From NCBI RefSeq assembly GCF_054482595.1, contig NZ_CM137008.1: 64,000 bases of DNA, one strand, 5' to 3'. Shown here piece after piece: positions 18,447 through 52,417 of the stretch. Within the stretch, counting starts at the first letter, position 1, and every line of letters begins with the position of its first letter. A program made the translations under genes and the position numbers. The notes under the pieces were generated by a model. It made no database searches. It had not been told where the DNA came from and saw nothing but the letters and a program-made list of their open reading frames with translations.

Positions 18447-19081
18447 TGTTTTGCCGCCTTGATGAGAGTGGTTTTCACCGGGAAATAATCTGCGCCGAGA
18501 TACTGTTCCGACTGGCGAATTTGCCCTTCGCTGTCGATCCAATAGCGGTTATGCCAGCGCGCCTGGTCGGTGGAGACTTCTTCGTCCAGCACGCGAACCG
18601 CGGTTTCATCGCTGCCGACCTTAACGGTACCGGTGCCATCCCATTTGAAGACTGAGCGTGCGGTGGCGTAGCGTACCTGCTGGTACTCGGTCCAGCCCAT
18701 CGTGCGCATCCAGGTTGCGCCATCAATGATTTGTGCGGGTTTAATCAGCGGGTCGGCGGCAAGGTTATTCACTTCAATCAGGTTGTCGCCGCCAAGCAAA
18801 GTCTTCACCAGACGACCATGTTGTGTGACGAGAGTAGCCTGATCCTGAGTGACCCATTTTTGTTGTCCGTCTTCAGCGAAGGCCAGCACCACAAATAACT
18901 GCGGCCCGCCATTAAGCTGCATGTACTGGCTGGCGTAGGGCATATTTTGAATATCATCATCCGTCAGCTGTACGCCTGGCGTACCGAACAGACTGTCCCA
19001 CAGTGAATTGCCCAGCTCTTTCGTCGTGGCTGAACAGGCCTGTAATAGCAGGCAGATAAGAATGAATGCAGGTCGCTTCAC
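18443..19081 (-). CDS. yjbF: Exopolysaccharide operon lipoprotein
   Basis: Lipobox LLQAC; probable GTG start at 19079-19081 with GGAGAA ribosome-binding site gives 212 aa (the track ORF extends 10 codons upstream). Confidence 0.8.
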   Translation of the reverse strand: MKRPAFILICLLLQACSATTKELGNSLWDSLFGTPGVQLTDDDIQNMPYASQYMQLNGGPQLFVVLAFAEDGQQKWVTQDQATLVTQHGRLVKTLLGGDNLIEVNNLAADPLIKPAQIIDGATWMRTMGWTEYQQVRYATARSVFKWDGTGTVKVGSDETAVRVLDEEVSTDQARWHNRYWIDSEGQIRQSEQYLGADYFPVKTTLIKAAKQ

Positions 19082-19194
19082 GACTCTTCTCCAGAGGGGC
19101 AGAATAACCACACCGGAGTGTGGTTATGGTAAATCCCTTCATACTTCTAGCCACAGATGCAATGACTCGAATTATTTTGGGGATACATACTTTA

Positions 19195-19437
19195 TTACTG
19201 GGTACTGGTGGTTGTGGTTGTTGTGGTCCCGGTATTAGAACCATCACCGCCACCGGTTGCCGCGAGCGCGACACCCACCGCCGAGCTTACGGTGCTGACG
19301 CTGGTCGCGGAGGAACTCCCCGCCGAAACCGACGTTGCTGCCGACCCTGCCGCTTCGCCCACCTGTACAGGTGCAGCCCACGCAGAAGTCGCCGCAAGCG
19401 CAGATATGGCAAAAATGCCATACAGAACTTTTTTCAT
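19195..19437 (-). CDS. yjbE: Small secreted Ser/Thr/Gly/Ala-rich protein
   Basis: 80 aa; signal peptide [21 protein letters not shown] then a low-complexity S/A/T/G region ending in a T7 run ([10 protein letters not shown]). Confidence 0.85.
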
Positions 19438-19844
19438 AACAATTTCCCTTCATTGAATGAATGGAGATTTACCCAAAAACATTTCGGGCGGGATCGAGTA
19501 TACACAACTAAAGCATACGAATTACGGCGCGGGGAATTAGCGATGGCGTTTTAGGATAATTGGAATGAATATCAAATATAAGTTTCAACTTATATTTAAA
19601 TAACAATAAAAATCATAAACTTAAAATAAAAACAAAAGTAATTAATCTGCGTATTTTCCGAAATAAACAACGATTAAAAATCTATTTTAGGATTAACCTC
19701 ACGGTATGATTTCCGTTAAATCACAGACAAGGGGATTTATCTGATAAAACAATGCCGACATAACGTCGGCATTGTTATTAAGGTTATTTAATCAATCGTG
19801 CTATGCATTAATTGCCGAATACGATGTACATATCGGCATCGACC

Positions 19845-19940
<96 letters not shown>

Positions 19941-19949
19941 GAACGATGA

Positions 19950-21599
19950 TTAACCGCGCCACGCTTTATAGCGGTTAATCAGACCATTGGTCGAGCTATC
20001 GTGGCTGCTGATTTCTTTATCATCTTTCAGCTCTGGCAGAATACGGTTCGCCAGCTGTTTACCCAGTTCCACGCCCCACTGGTCGAAGGTGAAGATGTTC
20101 AGGATCACGCCCTGAGTAAAGATTTTGTGCTCATACAGCGCAATCAACGCACCCAGGCTGAACGGAGTGATTTCACGCAGCAGGATGGAGTTGGTCGGGC
20201 GGTTACCTTCGAACACTTTGAACGGCACCACGTAGTCAAGCGTTGCCGGATCTTTACCCTGATCGCGATATTCCTGCTCAACCACTTCGCGGGATTTACC
20301 AAACGCCAGCGCTTCGGTCTGGGCAAAGAAGTTAGACAGCAGTTTCTGGTGATGATCAGAGAGCGGGTTATGGGTGATAGCCGGGGCGATGAAATCGCAC
20401 GGTACCATTTTAGTTCCCTGGTGGATCAGCTGGTAGAACGCGTGCTGACCGTTAGTACCTGGTTCCCCCCAGATAATCGGGCCAGTCTGGTAATCCACAA
20501 CATTACCGTTACGGTCAACATACTTACCGTTGGATTCCATATTGCCCTGCTGGAAGTACGCCGCGAAACGGTGCATATACTGGTCATACGGCAGAATCGC
20601 TTCAGTTTCCGCACCAAAGAAATTGTTGTACCAGATGCCAATCAGCGCCAGCAAGACAGGCAGGTTTTTCTCGGCAGGCGTGGTGGAGAAATGCTTGTCC
20701 ATCGCGTGTGCGCCAGAAAGCAGTTCAACGAAGTTATCAAAGCCGATGGAGAGAACAATCGACAGGCCAATCGCTGACCACAAAGAGTAACGGCCGCCGA
20801 CCCAGTCCCAGAACTCGAACATGTTGGCAGTATCAATACCAAACTCGCCAACGGCTTTGGCATTGGTTGAGAGCGCCGCAAAGTGTTTCGCAACGTGTTT
20901 TTCATCACCTGCCGCTTTCAGGAACCAGTCACGCGCGCTATGGGCGTTGGTCATGGTTTCCTGAGTGGTGAAGGTTTTAGATGCTACCAGGAACAGCGTG
21001 GTTTCCGGGTTTACTTTTTTCAGCACTTCCGCGATGTGAGTCCCATCGACGTTAGAAACAAAGTGCATGTTCAGGTGATTTTTGTACGGACGCAGTGCTT
21101 CGGTCACCATGTACGGGCCGAGGTCAGAACCACCGATCCCGATGTTCACTACGTCAGTGATTGCTTTGCCGGTATAACCCTTCCACTCACCGGAGATAAT
21201 CGCTTCCGAGAAGGCTTTCATCTTCTCCAGCACCGCGTTGACTTCCGGCATTACGTCTTTGCCATCAACCAGAATCGGGGTATTGCTACGGTTACGCAGC
21301 GCTACGTGCAGCACGGCGCGGTTTTCAGTGCGGTTGATCTTCTCGCCAGAGAACATCGACTTAATCGCGCCCGCCAGATCGCACTCTTTCGCCAGATCTT
21401 GTAATTTCGCCAGCGTCTCTTCAGTGATGCGGTTTTTGGAGTAATCCACCAGCATCTGATCGTCGAAGGTTGCGGAGAACTTAGAAAAACGATCGCCGTC
21501 TTTAGCAAAAAGATCGGCGATCGTAACGTCTTTCATTTCATCGAAGTGTTTCTGTAGTGCCTGCCAGGCAGCGGTCTGCGTTGGATTGATGTTTTTCAT
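19950..21599 (-). CDS. pgi: Glucose-6-phosphate isomerase
   Basis: Pgi N-terminus [15 protein letters not shown] at codon 3 of the track ORF gives 549 aa; conserved PGI motifs. Confidence 0.97.
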
Positions 21600-21839
21600 T
21601 AGCAATACTCTTCTGATTTTGAGAATTGTGACTTTGGAAGATTGTAGCGCCAGTCACAGAAAAATGTGATGGTTTTAGTGCCGTTAGCGTAATGTTGAGT
21701 GTAAACCCTTAGCGCAGTGAAGCATTTATTAGCTGAACTACTGACCGCCAGGAGTGGATGAAAAATCCGCATGACCCCGTCGTTGACAACCGCCCCGCTC
21801 ACCCTTTATTTATAAATGTACTACCTGCGCTAGCGCAGG

Positions 21840-22110
21840 CCAGAAGAGGCGCGTTGCCCAAGTAACGGTGTTGGAGGAGCCAGTCCTGTGATAACACCTG
21901 AGGGGGTGCATCGCCGAGGTGATTGAACGGCTGGCCACGTTCATCATCGGCTACAGGGGCTGAATCCCCTGGGTTGTCACCAGAAGCGTTCGCAGTCGGG
22001 CGTTTCGCAAGTGGTGGAGCACTTCTGGGTGAAAATAGTAGCGAAGTATCGCTCTGCGCCCACCCGTCTTCCGCTCTTCCCTTGTGCCAAGGCTGAAAAT
22101 GGATCCCCTG
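21840..22110 (+). promoter_or_regulatory. Lysine riboswitch (LYS element) in the lysC leader
   Basis: Long structured 5' leader directly upstream of lysC with the GAGGCGC...GGTG...GGGG elements typical of the lysC lysine riboswitch; a TTGACA -35 box lies at 21783-21788. Confidence 0.75.
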
Positions 22111-22123
22111 ACACGAGGTAGTT

Positions 22124-23473
22124 ATGTCTGAAATTGTTGTCTCCAAATTTGGCGGTACCAGCGTAGCTGATTTTGACGCCATGAACCGCAGCGCTGATAT
22201 TGTGCTTTCTGATGCCAACGTGCGTTTAGTAGTCCTCTCGGCTTCTGCTGGTATCACTAATCTGCTGGTCGCTTTAGCGGAAGGGCTGGAACCTGGCGAG
22301 CGATTCGAAAAACTCGACGCTATTCGCAACATCCAGTTTGCCATTCTGGAACGTCTGCGTTACCCGAACGTTATCCGTGAAGAGATTGAACGTCTGCTGG
22401 AGAACATTACTGTTCTGGCAGAAGCGGCGGCGCTGGCAACGTCTCCGGCGCTGACAGATGAACTGGTCAGCCACGGCGAGCTGATGTCGACCCTGCTGTT
22501 TGTTGAGATCCTGCGCGAACGCGATGTTCAGGCACAGTGGTTTGATGTACGTAAAGTGATGCGTACCAACGACCGATTTGGTCGTGCAGAGCCAGATGTA
22601 GCCGCGCTGGCGGAACTGGCCGCGCTGCAGCTGCTCCCACGCCTCAATGAAGGCTTAGTGATCACCCAGGGATTTATCGGTAGCGAAAATAAAGGTCGAA
22701 CAACGACGCTTGGCCGTGGAGGCAGCGATTATACGGCAGCCTTGCTGGCGGAGGCTTTACACGCATCTCGTGTTGATATCTGGACCGACGTCCCGGGCAT
22801 CTACACCACCGATCCACGCGTGGTTTCCGCAGCAAAACGCATTGATGAAATCGCGTTTGCCGAAGCGGCAGAGATGGCAACTTTTGGTGCAAAAGTACTG
22901 CATCCGGCAACGTTGCTACCCGCAGTACGCAGCGATATCCCGGTCTTTGTCGGCTCCAGCAAAGACCCACGCGCAGGTGGTACGCTGGTGTGCAATAAAA
23001 CTGAAAATCCGCCGCTGTTCCGCGCGCTGGCGCTTCGTCGCAATCAGACTCTGCTCACTTTGCACAGCCTGAATATGCTGCATTCTCGCGGTTTCCTCGC
23101 GGAAGTTTTCGGCATCCTCGCGCGGCATAATATTTCGGTAGACTTAATCACCACGTCAGAAGTGAGCGTGGCATTAACCCTTGATACCACCGGTTCAACC
23201 TCCACTGGCGATACGTTGCTGACGCAATCTCTGCTGATGGAGCTTTCCGCACTGTGCCGGGTGGAGGTGGAAGAAGGTCTGGCGCTGGTCGCGTTGATTG
23301 GCAATGACCTGTCAAAAGCCTGCGGCGTTGGCAAAGAGGTATTCGGCGTACTGGAACCGTTCAACATTCGCATGATTTGTTACGGCGCATCCAGCCATAA
23401 CCTGTGCTTCCTGGTGCCCGGCGAAGATGCCGAGCAGGTGGTGCAGAAGCTGCATTTTAATTTGTTTGAGTAA
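22124..23473 (+). CDS. lysC: Lysine-sensitive aspartokinase III
   Basis: 449 aa; MSEIVVSKFGGTSVADFDAMNRSADIV N-terminus, two C-terminal ACT domains. Confidence 0.97.
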   Translation: MSEIVVSKFGGTSVADFDAMNRSADIVLSDANVRLVVLSASAGITNLLVALAEGLEPGERFEKLDAIRNIQFAILERLRYPNVIREEIERLLENITVLAEAAALATSPALTDELVSHGELMSTLLFVEILRERDVQAQWFDVRKVMRTNDRFGRAEPDVAALAELAALQLLPRLNEGLVITQGFIGSENKGRTTTLGRGGSDYTAALLAEALHASRVDIWTDVPGIYTTDPRVVSAAKRIDEIAFAEAAEMATFGAKVLHPATLLPAVRSDIPVFVGSSKDPRAGGTLVCNKTENPPLFRALALRRNQTLLTLHSLNMLHSRGFLAEVFGILARHNISVDLITTSEVSVALTLDTTGSTSTGDTLLTQSLLMELSALCRVEVEEGLALVALIGNDLSKACGVGKEVFGVLEPFNIRMICYGASSHNLCFLVPGEDAEQVVQKLHFNLFE

Positions 23474-23725
23474 ATACTGTATGGCCTGGAAGCTATATTT
23501 CGGGCCGTATTGATTTTCTTGTCACTATGCTCATCAATAAACGAGCCTGTACTCTGTTAACCAGCGTCTTTATCGGAGAATAATTGCCTTTAATTTTTTT
23601 ATCTGCATCTCTAATTAATTATCGAAAGAGATAAATAGTTAAGAGAAGGCAAAATGAATATTATCAGTTCTGCTCGCAAACGAATTCCCGTACACTGAAC
23701 TCTCTGGCTCACTGAGGGCACCATC

Positions 23726-23998
23726 ATGGCACTCCCCCGTATTACCCAAAAAGAGATGACTGAGCGCGAGCAGCGTGAACTTAAAACACTGCTGGATCGG
23801 GCGCGGATTGCGCATGGTCGCGTACTGACCAACTCCGAAACCAACAGCATTAAGAAAGAGTACATCGATAAATTAATGGTCGAGCGTGAGGCTGAAGCGA
23901 AAAAAGCCCGCCAGTTAAAGAAAAAGCAGGCTTATAAACCGGATCCTGAAGCGTCATTTAGCTGGTCAGCAAATACGTCGACGCGCGGCAGGCGCTAA
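23726..23998 (+). CDS. yjbD: DUF3811-family small protein
   Basis: 90-aa highly charged protein (MALPRITQKEMTEREQRELKTLLDRARIAHG...); syntenic between lysC and rluF. Confidence 0.8.
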   Translation: MALPRITQKEMTEREQRELKTLLDRARIAHGRVLTNSETNSIKKEYIDKLMVEREAEAKKARQLKKKQAYKPDPEASFSWSANTSTRGRR

Positions 23999-24130
23999 TG
24001 AACAATCAACGCCTGAGATTTTCACTCGTCTGTGTGGACACAATCTTCCCCTCAACCTAACCCTCTCCCCGAAGGGGCGAGGGGACTGTCCGAGCACTTT
24101 TTGGACGTTTTCATCAGTCTGAGGCGTTAA

Positions 24131-25003
24131 TCAGCGTCCCTTCTTTTTACGCCCCGGCGAGGTAAAACGCTTACCGTTGGACGCCGGGCGACCGCCTTTT
24201 TCCGCCGTTTTTTCCATCTTAACGACTGGACGTTTGATGCCCGCCGTTTTCGGTTTAGCCTTCGCTTTAGGTTTTGCCTCGGAAGAGGAATTTTCAATGA
24301 GCTTAAAGAGGTCGATTAACTCATCGTCGGTTAAATCGCGCCACTCCCCCAGTGGAATGCCGCTTAAGCTGACGTTCATAATGCGCGTACGTTCCAGCTT
24401 TTTCACTTCGTAACCAAAGTGCTCACACATGCGACGGATCTGACGGTTCAACCCCTGCACCAGGGTAATGCGGAAGACAAACGGTGCTTCTTTTTTGATT
24501 TTGCACTTTTTCGTCACCGTCCCGAGGATCGGCACTCCCGCCCCCATACCACGAATAAATTCATCGGTAATCGGTTTATCGACCGTTACCAAATACTCTT
24601 TTTCATGATCATTGCCAGCACGCAGGATCTTATTCACCAGATCGCCGTGATTGGTGAGGAAAATCAGCCCCTGGGAGTCTTTATCCAGGCGGCCAATCGG
24701 GAACACGCGTTTGCTGTGGTTAACGAAATCGACAATGTTATCGCGCTCGCCATCTTCGGTGGTGCTGACAATACCGACGGGCTTGTTCAGGGCGATAAGT
24801 ACCAAATCTTCGGCTTCCCGAGGCTCAATCAACTGACCGTTTACTTTCACAACGTCGCCGGGTTTCACCTGATCGCCAATGGTGGCTCGCTTGCCATTAA
24901 GGAACACATTGCCTTGCTCGATATAGCGATCCGCTTCGCGGCGTGAGCAAATTCCGCTTTCGCTGATGTATTTATTTAAACGGACTGATGAGTCGGGCAG
25001 CAT
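24131..25003 (-). CDS. rluF: 23S rRNA pseudouridine synthase F
   Basis: 290 aa; S4 domain at the N-terminus, RsuA/RluF catalytic motif ([14 protein letters not shown]), lysine-rich C-terminal tail. Confidence 0.9.
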
Positions 25004-42406: not shown

Positions 42407-42540
42407 GCCGGATGCGGCGTAAACGCCTTATCCAGCCTACGTTCGGCAACGGTTGTAGGCATGATAAGACGCGCAAGCGTCGCATCAGGCATCGTGCACC
42501 GATTGCCGGATGCGGCGTAAATGCCTTATCCGGCCTACAG
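42407..42540. repeat. REP/BIME cluster between aceA and aceK
   Basis: Three or four REP palindromes (TGCCGGATGCGGCGTAAACGCCTTATCCAGCCTAC...). Confidence 0.75.
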
Positions 42541-47406: not shown

Positions 47407-47526
47407 ATGCCTGGCAGTTCCCTACTCTCGCATGGGGAGACCCCACACTACCATCGGCGCTACGGCGTTTCACTTCTGAGTTCGGCATGGGGTCAGGTGG
47501 GACCACCGCGCTAAGGCCGCCAGGCA
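47407..47526 (-). rRNA. rrfE: 5S ribosomal RNA
   Basis: 120-nt reverse-complement match to E. coli 5S rRNA (TGCCTGGCGGCC...GGAACTGCCAGGCAT). Confidence 0.98.
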
Positions 47527-47618
47527 AATTCTGTTTTATCAGACCGCTTCTGCGTTCTGATTTAATCTGTATCAGGCTGAAAATCTTCTCTCATCCGCCA
47601 AAACATCTTCGGCGTTGT

Positions 47619-50521
<2,903 letters not shown>

Positions 50522-50714
50522 TCACAACCCGAAGATGTTTCTTTCGATTCATCATCGTGTTGCGAAAATTTGAGAGACTCACGAACAACTCTCGTTGTTC
50601 AGTGTTTCAATTTTCAGCTTGATCCAGATTTTTAAAGAGCAAATATCTCAAACATCACCCGAAGATGAGTTTTGAGATATTAAGGTCGGCGACTTTCACT
50701 CACAAACCAGCAAG

Positions 50715-50790
50715 TGGCGTCCCCTAGGGGATTCGAACCCCTGTTACCGCCGTGAAAGGGCGGTGTCCTGGGCCTCTAGACGAAGGGGAC
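50715..50790 (-). tRNA. gltV: tRNA-Glu (anticodon UUC) in the 16S-23S spacer
   Basis: Reverse complement equals GTCCCCTTCGTCTAGAGGCCCAGGACACCGCCCTTTCACGGCGGTAACAGGGGTTCGAATCCCCTAGGGGACGCCA. Confidence 0.97.
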
Positions 50791-50875
50791 GTATCAGTCT
50801 GCTTCGCAAGACGCCTTGCTTTTCACTTTCTATCAGACAATCTGTGTGAGCACTTCAAAGAACGCTTCTTTAAGG

Positions 50876-52417
<1,542 letters not shown>

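What the first reader, a model, noticed from the sequence alone, without database searches (positions are those of the whole stretch)
21840..22110. Lysine riboswitch upstream of lysC on a shared divergent pgi-lysC control region
The roughly 280-nt structured leader is the classical LYS-element riboswitch controlling aspartokinase III; pgi is divergently transcribed from the same 524-bp intergenic region. Known biology, noted for completeness.
Basis: established knowledge. Interest (0 to 1): 0.2.

Follow-up and report, generated by a model that had tools for sequence, protein, structure and literature searches.

The report
E. coli lysC lysine riboswitch, confirmed
This is the well-studied lysine-sensing RNA switch in front of the E. 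coli aspartokinase III gene lysC, whose transcribed sequence is identical to the laboratory K-12 version, so the finding is correct and ordinary.

Summary
Rfam RF00168 (Lysine riboswitch) matches window 21836-22032 (+) at 99.5 bits against a cut-off of 30, E 3e-26. The match lies upstream of lysC (22124-23473, +). pgi (19950-21599, -) is divergent, and the spacer is exactly 524 bp.

The spacer matches E. coli K-12 MG1655 at 523 of 524 bases. The one difference (21779) lies upstream of the -35 hexamer, so the 306-nt leader (TSS 21818) is identical to the experimentally studied one. The region is present in 5425 of 5426 complete E. coli genomes, and PGAP annotates it as a riboswitch.

Published work describes this switch as using no intrinsic terminator. 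Lysine binding stabilises helix P1. That lets an SD-sequestering hairpin form (22080-22118) and exposes a C-rich Rho-loading and RNase E region (about 22050-22085). Without lysine, a long anti-P1 helix (22006-22031 with 22061-22086) masks that region. All published landmark positions map onto the window.

The phrase "shared control region" is only topological. The two promoters sit in separate conserved blocks.

One side observation stands out. 32 of 78 assessable related Enterobacteriaceae species, including two Escherichia species, lack the roughly 233-nt riboswitch module. Nearly all of them keep the promoter and the SD hairpin.

Novelty: already known. Interest: low.

The parts
19950..21599 (-). 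pgi coding sequence (glucose-6-phosphate isomerase), divergent neighbour
   Evidence: NF001211 at 909.6 bits; annotated pgi in RefSeq at the homologous place.
21641..21670 (-). sigma-70 promoter-like site for pgi (ATCACA, 18-nt spacer, TACAAT)
   Evidence: Consensus scan only, 9 of 12 matches. It lies in the block IGR 1-86 that is conserved across genera. Not verified experimentally here.
21758..21772 (+). Conserved block ATGAAAAATCCGCAT, centred about 53 bp upstream of the lysC TSS, with a T-N11-A dyad typical of LysR-type regulator sites; candidate ArgP site
   Evidence: The core AAAAATCCGCAT and the leading AT are invariant across the nine sequences of six genera in A2, and the third position is G or A; coordinates. 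ArgP control of lysC transcription is stated in PMC12925634 and PMC6254735. The assignment of this block to ArgP is my inference.
21783..21817 (+). lysC promoter: -35 TTGACA (21783-21788) and a largely conserved AT-rich -10 block TTTATTTATAAAT (21805-21817; first nine bases TTTATTTAT invariant in A2)
   Evidence: Read from the sequence and conserved in riboswitch-plus and riboswitch-less relatives. The simple consensus scan did not call it.
21818..22123 (+). lysC 5' untranslated leader, 306 nt (TSS G at 21818)
   Evidence: Numbering from PMC10946432 (G309 = G of AUG). With +1 = 21818 the bases at G309, G349, U354-357, A364 and Site1 250-253 (UCUU) all match the window. The leader is identical to K-12 MG1655.
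21825..21838 (+). 5' hairpin CUGCGC-UA-GCGCAG preceding the aptamer; its 3' edge is a recurrent indel point in relatives
   Evidence: Sequence. Insertions of 86 nt to about 320 nt occur at this point in E. albertii, Klebsiella, Raoultella and Kosakonia.
21836..22032 (+). Lysine riboswitch aptamer (P1 = 21841-21846 paired with 22022-22027; P2 to P5 inside)
   Evidence: RF00168 at 99.5 bits; P1 pairs. On 46 related leaders, 19 pairs show changes on both sides, against 13.3 in shuffles (0 of 500 shuffles reach it) and 5-14 in slid controls. The compensatory changes are in P2, P3 and P4.
22006..22031 (+). 5' strand of the anti-P1 / anti-sequester helix (ON state); overlaps the 3' strands of P5 and P1
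   Evidence: Local MFE fold of 22005-22140. All sequences that have both bases keep the 12 pairs of the main helix (one pair exists in only 10 of them), but none shows a compensatory change.
22050..22085 (+). C-rich, G-poor stretch: published Rho-utilisation (rut) region, containing RNase E Site1 UCUU at 22067-22070
   Evidence: C 0.50 and G 0.17 in the 30-nt window at +241..+270. The rut site near +240 and Site1 at +250-253 are from PMC10946432.
22061..22086 (+). 3' strand of the anti-P1 / anti-sequester helix; CUUGUG (22081-22086) is shared with the sequestering hairpin
22080..22118 (+). SD-sequestering hairpin (OFF state): CCUUGUG 22080-22086 pairs with CACGAGG 22112-22118, plus the inner pairs 22088/22110, 22089/22109, 22091/22107 and 22092/22106
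   Evidence: Folds. 98% of cells are paired in 45 distinct riboswitch-plus leaders. The same hairpin is the RNAalifold consensus of 23 riboswitch-less leaders. No compensatory changes, so the support is conservation only.
22115..22126 (+). Shine-Dalgarno GAGG (22115-22118) and AUG (22124-22126); G at 22126 is the published RNAP pause and Rho/NusG termination site G309
   Evidence: Sequence; PMC10946432.
22124..23473 (+). lysC coding sequence (lysine-sensitive aspartokinase III, 449 aa)
   Evidence: NF006570 at 766.9 bits; RefSeq annotation at the homologous place.

Best explanation
This is the E. coli lysC lysine riboswitch, a cis-acting RNA in the 306-nt leader of the aspartokinase III mRNA that turns lysC off when lysine is abundant.

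- Aptamer: 21836-22032 forms the five-helix lysine aptamer.
- Lysine bound (OFF): lysine stabilises P1 (21841-21846 with 22022-22027). The downstream strand 22061-22086 is then free. Its CCUUGUG pairs with CACGAGG and buries the Shine-Dalgarno sequence (hairpin 22080-22118). The C-rich stretch around 22050-22085 stays single-stranded, where Rho can load and RNase E can cut (Site1 at 22067-22070).
- Lysine absent (ON): the 3' strands of P5 and P1 (22006-22031) pair instead with 22061-22086. This long imperfect helix takes the CUUGUG strand away from the SD and masks the rut and RNase E region, so lysC is translated and the mRNA is kept.
- There is no intrinsic terminator.
- A second, independent layer of lysine control acts at the promoter (ArgP).

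Shown here: the identity of the element, the aptamer fold with covariation, the alternative helices in silico, and the exact mapping of all published landmarks. Taken from published experiments on the identical K-12 sequence: lysine dependence and the involvement of RNase E and Rho.
For: - Family match: RF00168 at 99.5 bits, E 2.9e-26.
- Aptamer fold: 47 of 51 consensus pairs are canonical.
- Context: lysC lies downstream on the same strand.
- Identity: the IGR is 523 of 524 identical to K-12 MG1655, and the single difference at 21779 is upstream of the -35.
- Prevalence: 5425 of 5426 complete E. coli genomes hold the region, with a PGAP 'riboswitch' feature.
- Landmarks: every published position (G309, G349, U354-357, A364, Site1 UCUU at 250-253, C-rich peak near +240) falls on the right base with +1 = 21818 (PMC10946432).
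- No terminator: no terminator-like site on the + strand between the aptamer and the AUG.
- Switch geometry: the local fold gives the anti-P1/anti-sequester helix, which shares CUUGUG with the SD hairpin.
- Covariation: aptamer helices P2, P3 and P4 carry compensatory changes across 45 distinct Enterobacteriaceae leaders. 150 cells change on both sides, against 51 in shuffles and 15-45 in slid controls.
- Platform helices: 98-100% paired across relatives.
- Promoter layer: ArgP control is reported in PMC12925634 and PMC6254735.
Against: - No experiment was done on this strain. Function is transferred from the identical K-12 sequence.
- Unconstrained MFE folding of the whole leader does not recover the aptamer and is only modestly better than shuffles (z = -1.99).
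- Constrained ensemble calculations give only a small ON/OFF difference in SD accessibility (mean P(unpaired) 0.21 against 0.11). They also predict RNase E Site1 to be more exposed in the ON constraint (0.98) than in the OFF constraint (0.62), and the rut stretch only slightly more exposed in OFF (0.44 against 0.32). The thermodynamic model therefore does not reproduce the switch.
- The expression-platform helices show no compensatory changes (0 pairs). Their support is conservation, and the structure was derived from one of the aligned sequences.
- The SD hairpin is equally conserved in relatives that have no riboswitch, so it is not purely a riboswitch part.
Confidence: 0.97

Rival explanations
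1. It is a lysine riboswitch of the Bacillus type, which works by forming an intrinsic transcription terminator in the leader.
For: The aptamer class is the same as in B. subtilis lysC (RF00168).
Against: There is no terminator-like stem plus U-run on the + strand between 22032 and 22124. The only + strand terminator-like site in 21500-22250 is at 21569-21583, inside pgi antisense. The literature on the identical sequence reports control of translation, RNase E cleavage and Rho-dependent termination instead.
Confidence: 0.01
2. Lysine control of lysC here is mainly transcriptional, through the promoter and ArgP. On this view the RNA structure is a minor or vestigial contributor, as its precise absence in many close relatives might suggest.
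For: 32 of 78 assessable related species keep the promoter and the conserved upstream block but lack the aptamer. ArgP-dependent, lysine-sensitive activation of lysC transcription is reported.
Against: In E. coli the aptamer and platform are fixed (5425 of 5426 genomes, 5420 records at 99% identity or more). They are under structural constraint. Published fusions driven by a heterologous lacUV5 promoter still show 2- to 8.5-fold lysine repression that depends on the riboswitch.
Confidence: 0.02
3. The region encodes a protein on the opposite strand (ORF 21799-22344, -, 181 aa), and the RNA match is incidental.
For: An ATG-initiated 181-aa ORF exists antisense to the leader and the 5' end of lysC.
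Against: It has no Pfam match at E up to 0.1. It is not annotated in RefSeq records for this place. It overlaps the lysC coding sequence. The CM match at E 3e-26 and the covariation are not compatible with chance.
Confidence: 0.005

Closest known systems
E. coli K-12 lysC lysine riboswitch (characterised by Caron et al. 2012 as cited in, and by, Ghosh et al. 2024, PMC10946432)
   Same: The entire transcribed leader (306 nt) and start region are base-for-base identical. All published landmarks map exactly: TSS, Site1, rut, pause/termination site G309, and G349, U354-357, A364. The genomic context is the same: rluF-yjbD-lysC / pgi-yjbE.
   Different: There is one substitution at 21779 (G here, A in MG1655), 4 bp upstream of the -35 hexamer and outside the RNA.
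Bacillus subtilis lysC L-box / LYS element (RF00168 members in Firmicutes)
   Same: Same aptamer family, same ligand, and the same kind of regulated gene (aspartokinase).
   Different: The expression platform in Bacillus is an intrinsic terminator with an antiterminator. Here there is no terminator. Instead there is an SD-sequestering hairpin plus a masked rut and RNase E region.
Other E. coli riboswitches that couple translation control to Rho or RNase E (thiC, thiM, tbpA, ribB, btuB)
   Same: Same multi-layer logic: ligand-dependent SD occlusion with secondary effects on mRNA level, and a pause at the start codon (PMC10946432; PMC5234074 was listed but not read).
   Different: The ligand and aptamer fold differ. 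According to PMC10946432, lysC is the case where RNase E sites are directly unmasked by the switch (nucleolytic repression), rather than decay merely following translation arrest.
Riboswitch-less lysC leaders of Citrobacter, the Enterobacter cloacae complex, Lelliottia, Trabulsiella, Escherichia whittamii and others
   Same: Same -35 and -10 blocks, same conserved upstream box, same first ~22 nt of leader, and the same SD-sequestering hairpin and SD/AUG context.
   Different: They lack about 233 nt corresponding to window ~21840-22072 (aptamer plus anti-P1 strand). The 12 of these loci that were scanned have no RF00168 hit at gathering score, and nhmmer finds no aptamer in any of them.

Membership tests
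Lysine riboswitch (Rfam RF00168, L-box / LYS element) | Covariance-model score at or above the curated gathering score, over the full model | tested here: met
   99.5 bits against 30, model positions 1-182 of 182, E 2.9e-26; the only Lysine hit in the 64-kb window.
Lysine riboswitch (Rfam RF00168, L-box / LYS element) | Five helices (P1-P5) around a multi-helix junction, supported by base pairing and covariation | tested here: met
   47 of 51 consensus pairs are canonical. Across 45 distinct related leaders, 92.3% of cells are paired. 19 pairs have changes on both sides (shuffles 13.3, 0 of 500 reach it; slid controls 5-14). The compensatory changes are in P2, P3 and P4; P1 and P5 are invariant.
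Lysine riboswitch (Rfam RF00168, L-box / LYS element) | Conserved junction/core sequence blocks (AGAGG.GC, GCCGA, UGUCAC, GGAG..CU) | tested here: met
   All blocks align to the consensus at high posterior probability and are invariant or nearly so in 46 leaders. Which of these bases contact lysine rests on published crystal structures, recalled from memory, not tested here.
Lysine riboswitch (Rfam RF00168, L-box / LYS element) | Located in the 5' leader, same strand, of a lysine biosynthesis or transport gene | tested here: met
   The aptamer ends 91 nt upstream of the lysC start codon (AUG at 22124); lysC is identified by NF006570 at 766.9 bits.
Lysine riboswitch (Rfam RF00168, L-box / LYS element) | Expression platform with mutually exclusive structures linked to P1 | tested here: inconclusive
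   The alternative helices exist and are 98-100% paired in relatives. They show no compensatory changes, and the ensemble calculation shows only a small ON/OFF difference in SD exposure (0.21 against 0.11).
Lysine riboswitch (Rfam RF00168, L-box / LYS element) | Direct, selective binding of L-lysine and lysine-dependent repression | not testable with these tools
   Inferred from 100% identity of the RNA to the K-12 element, for which lysine-dependent regulation is published (PMC10946432).
Terminator-type (transcription attenuation) riboswitch | Intrinsic terminator hairpin followed by a U-run between the aptamer and the start codon | tested here: not met
   No such site on the + strand in 22032-22124.

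The most novel reading that the evidence does not exclude
The riboswitch proper (aptamer plus anti-P1 strand, about window 21840-22072, ~233 nt) behaves as a discrete cassette. It sits between a conserved promoter with a 5' stub and a conserved SD-sequestering hairpin.

It is present in 46 and absent in 32 of 78 assessable Enterobacteriaceae species, and all but one of the riboswitch-less leaders share essentially the same junction. The genus Escherichia is split: E. coli and E. albertii have it, E. whittamii and strain E1V33 do not.

In the riboswitch-less Escherichia, the lysC gene with its leader and promoter forms a diverged island (77-86% identity). The flanks are at 87-100%, and the left breakpoint lies inside the pgi-lysC spacer near 21690.

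The unexcluded reading is that this regulatory module is gained and lost by homologous allelic exchange. It would follow that the SD hairpin has a role independent of the riboswitch, for example as a translation damper or a pause element for the start-codon pause.

I did not find this described. A 2017 survey states only that the system is 'well conserved within Enterobacteriales'.
Probability: 0.45. Interest if true: 0.4.

Novelty: already known. Interest (0 to 1): 0.1.

Why it matters
The finding itself adds nothing new. It is the textbook E. coli lysC riboswitch, correctly recognised from raw sequence. It controls the first committed, lysine-sensitive step of the aspartate pathway. It is a target of lysine analogues such as AEC and a standard lever in lysine-overproduction engineering.

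What may be worth a follow-up is the comparative side result. Close relatives, including other Escherichia species, run the same promoter and the same SD hairpin without the riboswitch. This offers a natural experiment on what the RNA layer adds on top of ArgP control, and on how a riboswitch is lost or gained.

Tried and rejected
1. Intrinsic terminator platform: scanned, none on the + strand.
2. Whole-leader MFE folding as a test of structure: it does not recover the aptamer and z is only -1.99. It was replaced by CM alignment, constrained and local folds, and comparative counts.
3. Ensemble SD-accessibility as a switch read-out: the difference is small (0.11 against 0.21) and not convincing.
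4. Antisense ORF 21799-22344: no Pfam hit and not annotated.
5. Mobile or plasmid origin: the only 'plasmid' hits are megabase-size or otherwise non-mobilizable records, probably mis-filed chromosomal sequence.
6. Recent transfer of the E. coli riboswitch from Kluyvera: identity falls off as a gradient (Kluyvera 87%, Klebsiella/Raoultella 84-85%) rather than showing an outlier, so this is not supported.
7. Literature on riboswitch loss at lysC in enterobacteria: four searches and one survey paper gave nothing. The primary papers (Rodionov 2003, Sudarsan 2003, Caron 2012, Marbaniang 2011) are not held.
8. Salmonella was not among the 80 loci returned and could not be reached through the other collections.

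Full report
**Observation**

A covariance-model scan of window 19000-25000 against Rfam 15 gives a full-length match to RF00168 (Lysine riboswitch aptamer). The match is at 21836-22032 on the + strand, at 99.5 bits (gathering score 30), E 2.9e-26. It is the only such hit in the whole 64-kb window. 47 of the 51 consensus base pairs are canonical in this sequence.

The next ORF downstream on the same strand, 22124-23473, is lysine-sensitive aspartokinase 3 (NF006570, 766.9 bits against a cut-off of 455). The ORF 19950-21599 on the - strand is glucose-6-phosphate isomerase (NF001211, 909.6 bits).

It omits the first 22 nt of the leader and the SD strand of the regulatory hairpin.

**Identity with the known element**

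The 524-bp spacer is found at 99% identity or more in 5420 records. It is present in 5425 of 5426 complete E. coli genomes, nearly always once, and PGAP annotates a riboswitch under it. The gene order is rluF-yjbD-lysC / pgi-yjbE-yjbF, as in K-12.

Against K-12 MG1655 the spacer differs at one base, window 21779 (G against A), 4 bp upstream of the -35 hexamer. The transcribed leader is therefore identical to the one that has been studied experimentally.

Ghosh et al. 2024 (PMC10946432) number the RNA from the transcription start, with G309 as the G of the AUG. This places +1 at window 21818, which is a G. With that origin every landmark in the paper falls on the right base:
- G309 = 22126
- G349 = 22166
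- U354-357 = TTTT at 22171-22174
- A364 = 22181
- RNase E Site1 (250-253) = UCUU at 22067-22070
- The C-rich, G-poor 'rut' region around +240 = the composition peak at +241..+270 (C 0.50, G 0.17)

The leader is thus 306 nt (21818-22123).

**Mechanism**

The literature on the identical sequence describes three outputs of one conformational switch.
- Without lysine, an anti-P1 (anti-sequestering) stem allows translation and hides the RNase E sites.
- With lysine, P1 forms, the SD is sequestered, and the RNase E sites and the rut region become single-stranded.
- Rho with NusG then terminates at the start codon (G309, also an RNAP pause) and further inside the gene.

I checked that the sequence supports this geometry.
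- P1 is 21841-21846 paired with 22022-22027.
- A local fold of 22005-22140 gives a long imperfect helix between 22006-22031 and 22061-22086. Its pairings are CGCAAG:CUUGUG, GG:CC, GGAGC:GCUCU and UGGGUG:CACCCG. Site1 lies in its internal loop.
- The alternative partner of CCUUGUG (22080-22086) is CACGAGG (22112-22118), which contains the SD GAGG (22115-22118). Four further inner pairs extend this hairpin.
- The strand 22081-22086 is therefore shared between the ON helix and the SD hairpin. The strand 22022-22031 is shared between P1 and the ON helix. That is the logic of the switch.
- There is no intrinsic terminator on the + strand between the aptamer and the AUG, so the Bacillus-type mechanism is excluded.

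Two cautions apply. Unconstrained folding of the whole leader does not recover the aptamer (z = -1.99). Constrained ensemble calculations also fail to reproduce the switch. The ON/OFF difference in SD exposure is small (0.21 against 0.11). Site1 comes out more exposed under the ON constraint (0.98 against 0.62). The in-silico part therefore shows only that the alternative helices exist. It does not show the switch working.

**Comparative test**

A scan of one genome per species returned 80 Enterobacteriaceae lysC loci. 46 of them carry the aptamer by nhmmer. A mixed sample of 20 loci was checked with Rfam. All 8 expected positives scored 74-94 bits, and all 12 expected negatives had no hit.

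On an alignment of 46 riboswitch-plus leaders (A3), I counted pairs for the aptamer plus OFF-state structure.
- 92.3% of cells are paired.
- 19 pairs change on both sides (shuffles 13.3, 0 of 500 reach it; slid controls 5-14).
- 150 cells change on both sides (shuffles 51; slid controls 15-45).
- The compensatory changes are in P2, P3 and P4. P1, P5 and the SD hairpin never vary.

The ON-state helix is fully paired in its 12-pair core but has no compensatory change. The aptamer fold is thus supported by covariation. The expression platform is supported only by strong conservation and by one-sided changes that keep pairing.

**The 'shared divergent control region'**

This phrase is correct as geography only.
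- The lysC promoter has -35 TTGACA at 21783-21788 and an AT-rich -10 block at 21805-17.
- A conserved upstream box ATGAAAAATCCGCAT lies at 21758-21772. It has a T-N11-A dyad and may be the site of ArgP. ArgP is reported to activate lysC transcription unless lysine is bound. The site assignment is my inference.
- The pgi promoter-like site is at 21641-21670 on the - strand.

Across genera, two blocks are conserved separately: IGR 1-86 on the pgi side and IGR 159-218 on the lysC side. The sequence between them varies and carries indels. Nothing suggests a common regulator.

**Side result: many relatives lack the riboswitch**

32 of the 78 assessable species lack it. These include 13 Citrobacter species, Enterobacter cloacae-complex species, Lelliottia, Trabulsiella, Pluralibacter, Superficieibacter, Pseudenterobacter, Phytobacter massiliensis and Atlantibacter. 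They also include one Buttiauxella MAG, Escherichia whittamii and Escherichia sp. E1V33.

Nearly all of their leaders keep the -35 and -10 blocks, the upstream box and the first ~22 nt. They then continue directly with the last ~50 nt of the E. coli leader. In effect they equal the E. coli leader minus about +23 to +255 (window ~21840-22072), with essentially one junction. Atlantibacter (L079) is the exception, with a different leader that lacks the shared hairpin.

The RNAalifold consensus of 23 such leaders is the same 11-pair SD-sequestering hairpin. The hairpin is therefore not just a riboswitch part.

In E. whittamii and E1V33, identity to the window is 93-100% across pgi. It drops to 77-86% from about 21690 through lysC and returns to 87-98% beyond about 23600. 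This looks like allelic replacement of lysC together with its control region.

The direction of change (loss or regain) is unresolved. The E. coli riboswitch is closest to Kluyvera (87%), but along a gradient rather than as an outlier.

The leader is also an indel hotspot.
- E. albertii has an 86-nt insertion at +22, and Klebsiella, Raoultella and Kosakonia have larger ones at the same point.
- ERIC-like elements sit inside the P5 loop in Buttiauxella noackiae and Cedecea sulfonylureivorans.
- ERIC-like elements also sit just after the -10 block in several Citrobacter.

A 2017 survey says only that the lysC system is 'well conserved within Enterobacteriales' (PMC5584792). I found no description of this patchiness. 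The key early papers are not held, and Salmonella was not examined.

**Verdict**

The finding is right and is already known biology. Interest is low. The presence/absence polymorphism among close relatives is the only part that might merit further work.

Noticed in passing
L004, L006, L008, L010, L011, L013-L018, L020, L021, L023, L035, L037, L045, L046, L049, L051, L052, L063, L067, L069, L072-L075, L077, L079, L081, L082 (upstream of lysC, about 2400-2500 in most loci): 32 of 78 assessable Enterobacteriaceae species, including Escherichia whittamii and Escherichia sp. E1V33, have no lysine riboswitch upstream of lysC. Nearly all of their leaders equal the E. coli leader minus about 233 nt (window ~21840-22072), with essentially the same junction. 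The promoter and the upstream box are kept.
   Followed up: partly
window 22080-22118; alignment A4 of 23 riboswitch-less leaders: The SD-sequestering hairpin (CCUUGUG/CACGAGG plus inner pairs) and the block CCCUGACACGAGGU are conserved in leaders with and without the riboswitch. This suggests a role beyond the riboswitch. Its 3' end lies 8 nt before the published start-codon pause site G309 (22126).
   Followed up: partly
window ~21690-23600 compared with L006 and L004: Against E. whittamii and E1V33, identity is 93-100% in pgi. It falls to 77-86% across the lysC-side spacer and lysC, then returns to 87-98% in yjbD/rluF. This is a diverged island with a breakpoint inside the spacer. In E. albertii (L007) the riboswitch is 93-96% identical but the lysC CDS only 79-90%.
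   Followed up: partly
L050 around 2293 and L068 around 2300 (inside the riboswitch P5 loop); L011 ~2351, L017 ~2358, L020 ~2357, L073 (just after the -10 block): ERIC-like repeat elements (core ...GAGCTTAC..AAGTAAGTGAYT...GGTGAG) are inserted in the P5 loop of the lysine riboswitch in Buttiauxella noackiae and Cedecea sulfonylureivorans. They are also inserted at the start of the leader in several riboswitch-less Citrobacter and in an unnamed Enterobacteriaceae MAG (L073). Identification as ERIC rests on my recollection of the ERIC primer sequences.
   Followed up: partly
L007 2008-2093; the same point (window 21839) in Klebsiella, Raoultella and Kosakonia loci: There is a recurrent insertion point between the 5' hairpin (21825-21838) and the aptamer. 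The insertion is 86 nt in E. albertii, about 100 nt in Klebsiella/Raoultella and about 320 nt in Kosakonia. The nature of the inserts was not determined.
   Followed up: no
A3 columns ~408-548 (Klebsiella, Raoultella; L012): The loop of the SD-sequestering hairpin carries an extra ~100 nt or more in Klebsiella/Raoultella and in L012. This stretch contains its own inverted repeat (GGCCTGGCTTATTAAGAC...GTTTTAATAAGTCAGGCC). Function unknown.
   Followed up: no
window 21758-21772: The block ATGAAAAATCCGCAT (T-N11-A dyad) lies about 53 bp upstream of the lysC TSS. It is almost invariant across genera, with and without the riboswitch. It is a candidate LysR-type (ArgP) site.
   Followed up: no
window 19634-19783 (+) and 19849-19920: Between yjbE and pgi there is an Rfam STnc430 match (75.8 bits) and a REP-type naRNA4 match (81.3 bits on the - strand). 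STnc430 recurs at the same place in most related loci scanned. More naRNA4/REP hits lie at 5949-6019, 10178-10248 and 42458-42535.
   Followed up: no
window 47409-52417 (-): A complete rRNA operon: 16S at 50876-52417, a tRNA at 50718-50790, a StyR-44 match at 50529-50637, 23S at 47619-50521 and 5S at 47409-47524.
   Followed up: no
(E. coli genomes): One of 5426 complete 'E. coli' genomes has no match to the pgi-lysC spacer, and one genome has a second copy on a plasmid record. L005, labelled E. coli SCPM-O-B-8794, has a lysC start region of the riboswitch-less type, but too little upstream sequence is held to judge.
   Followed up: no
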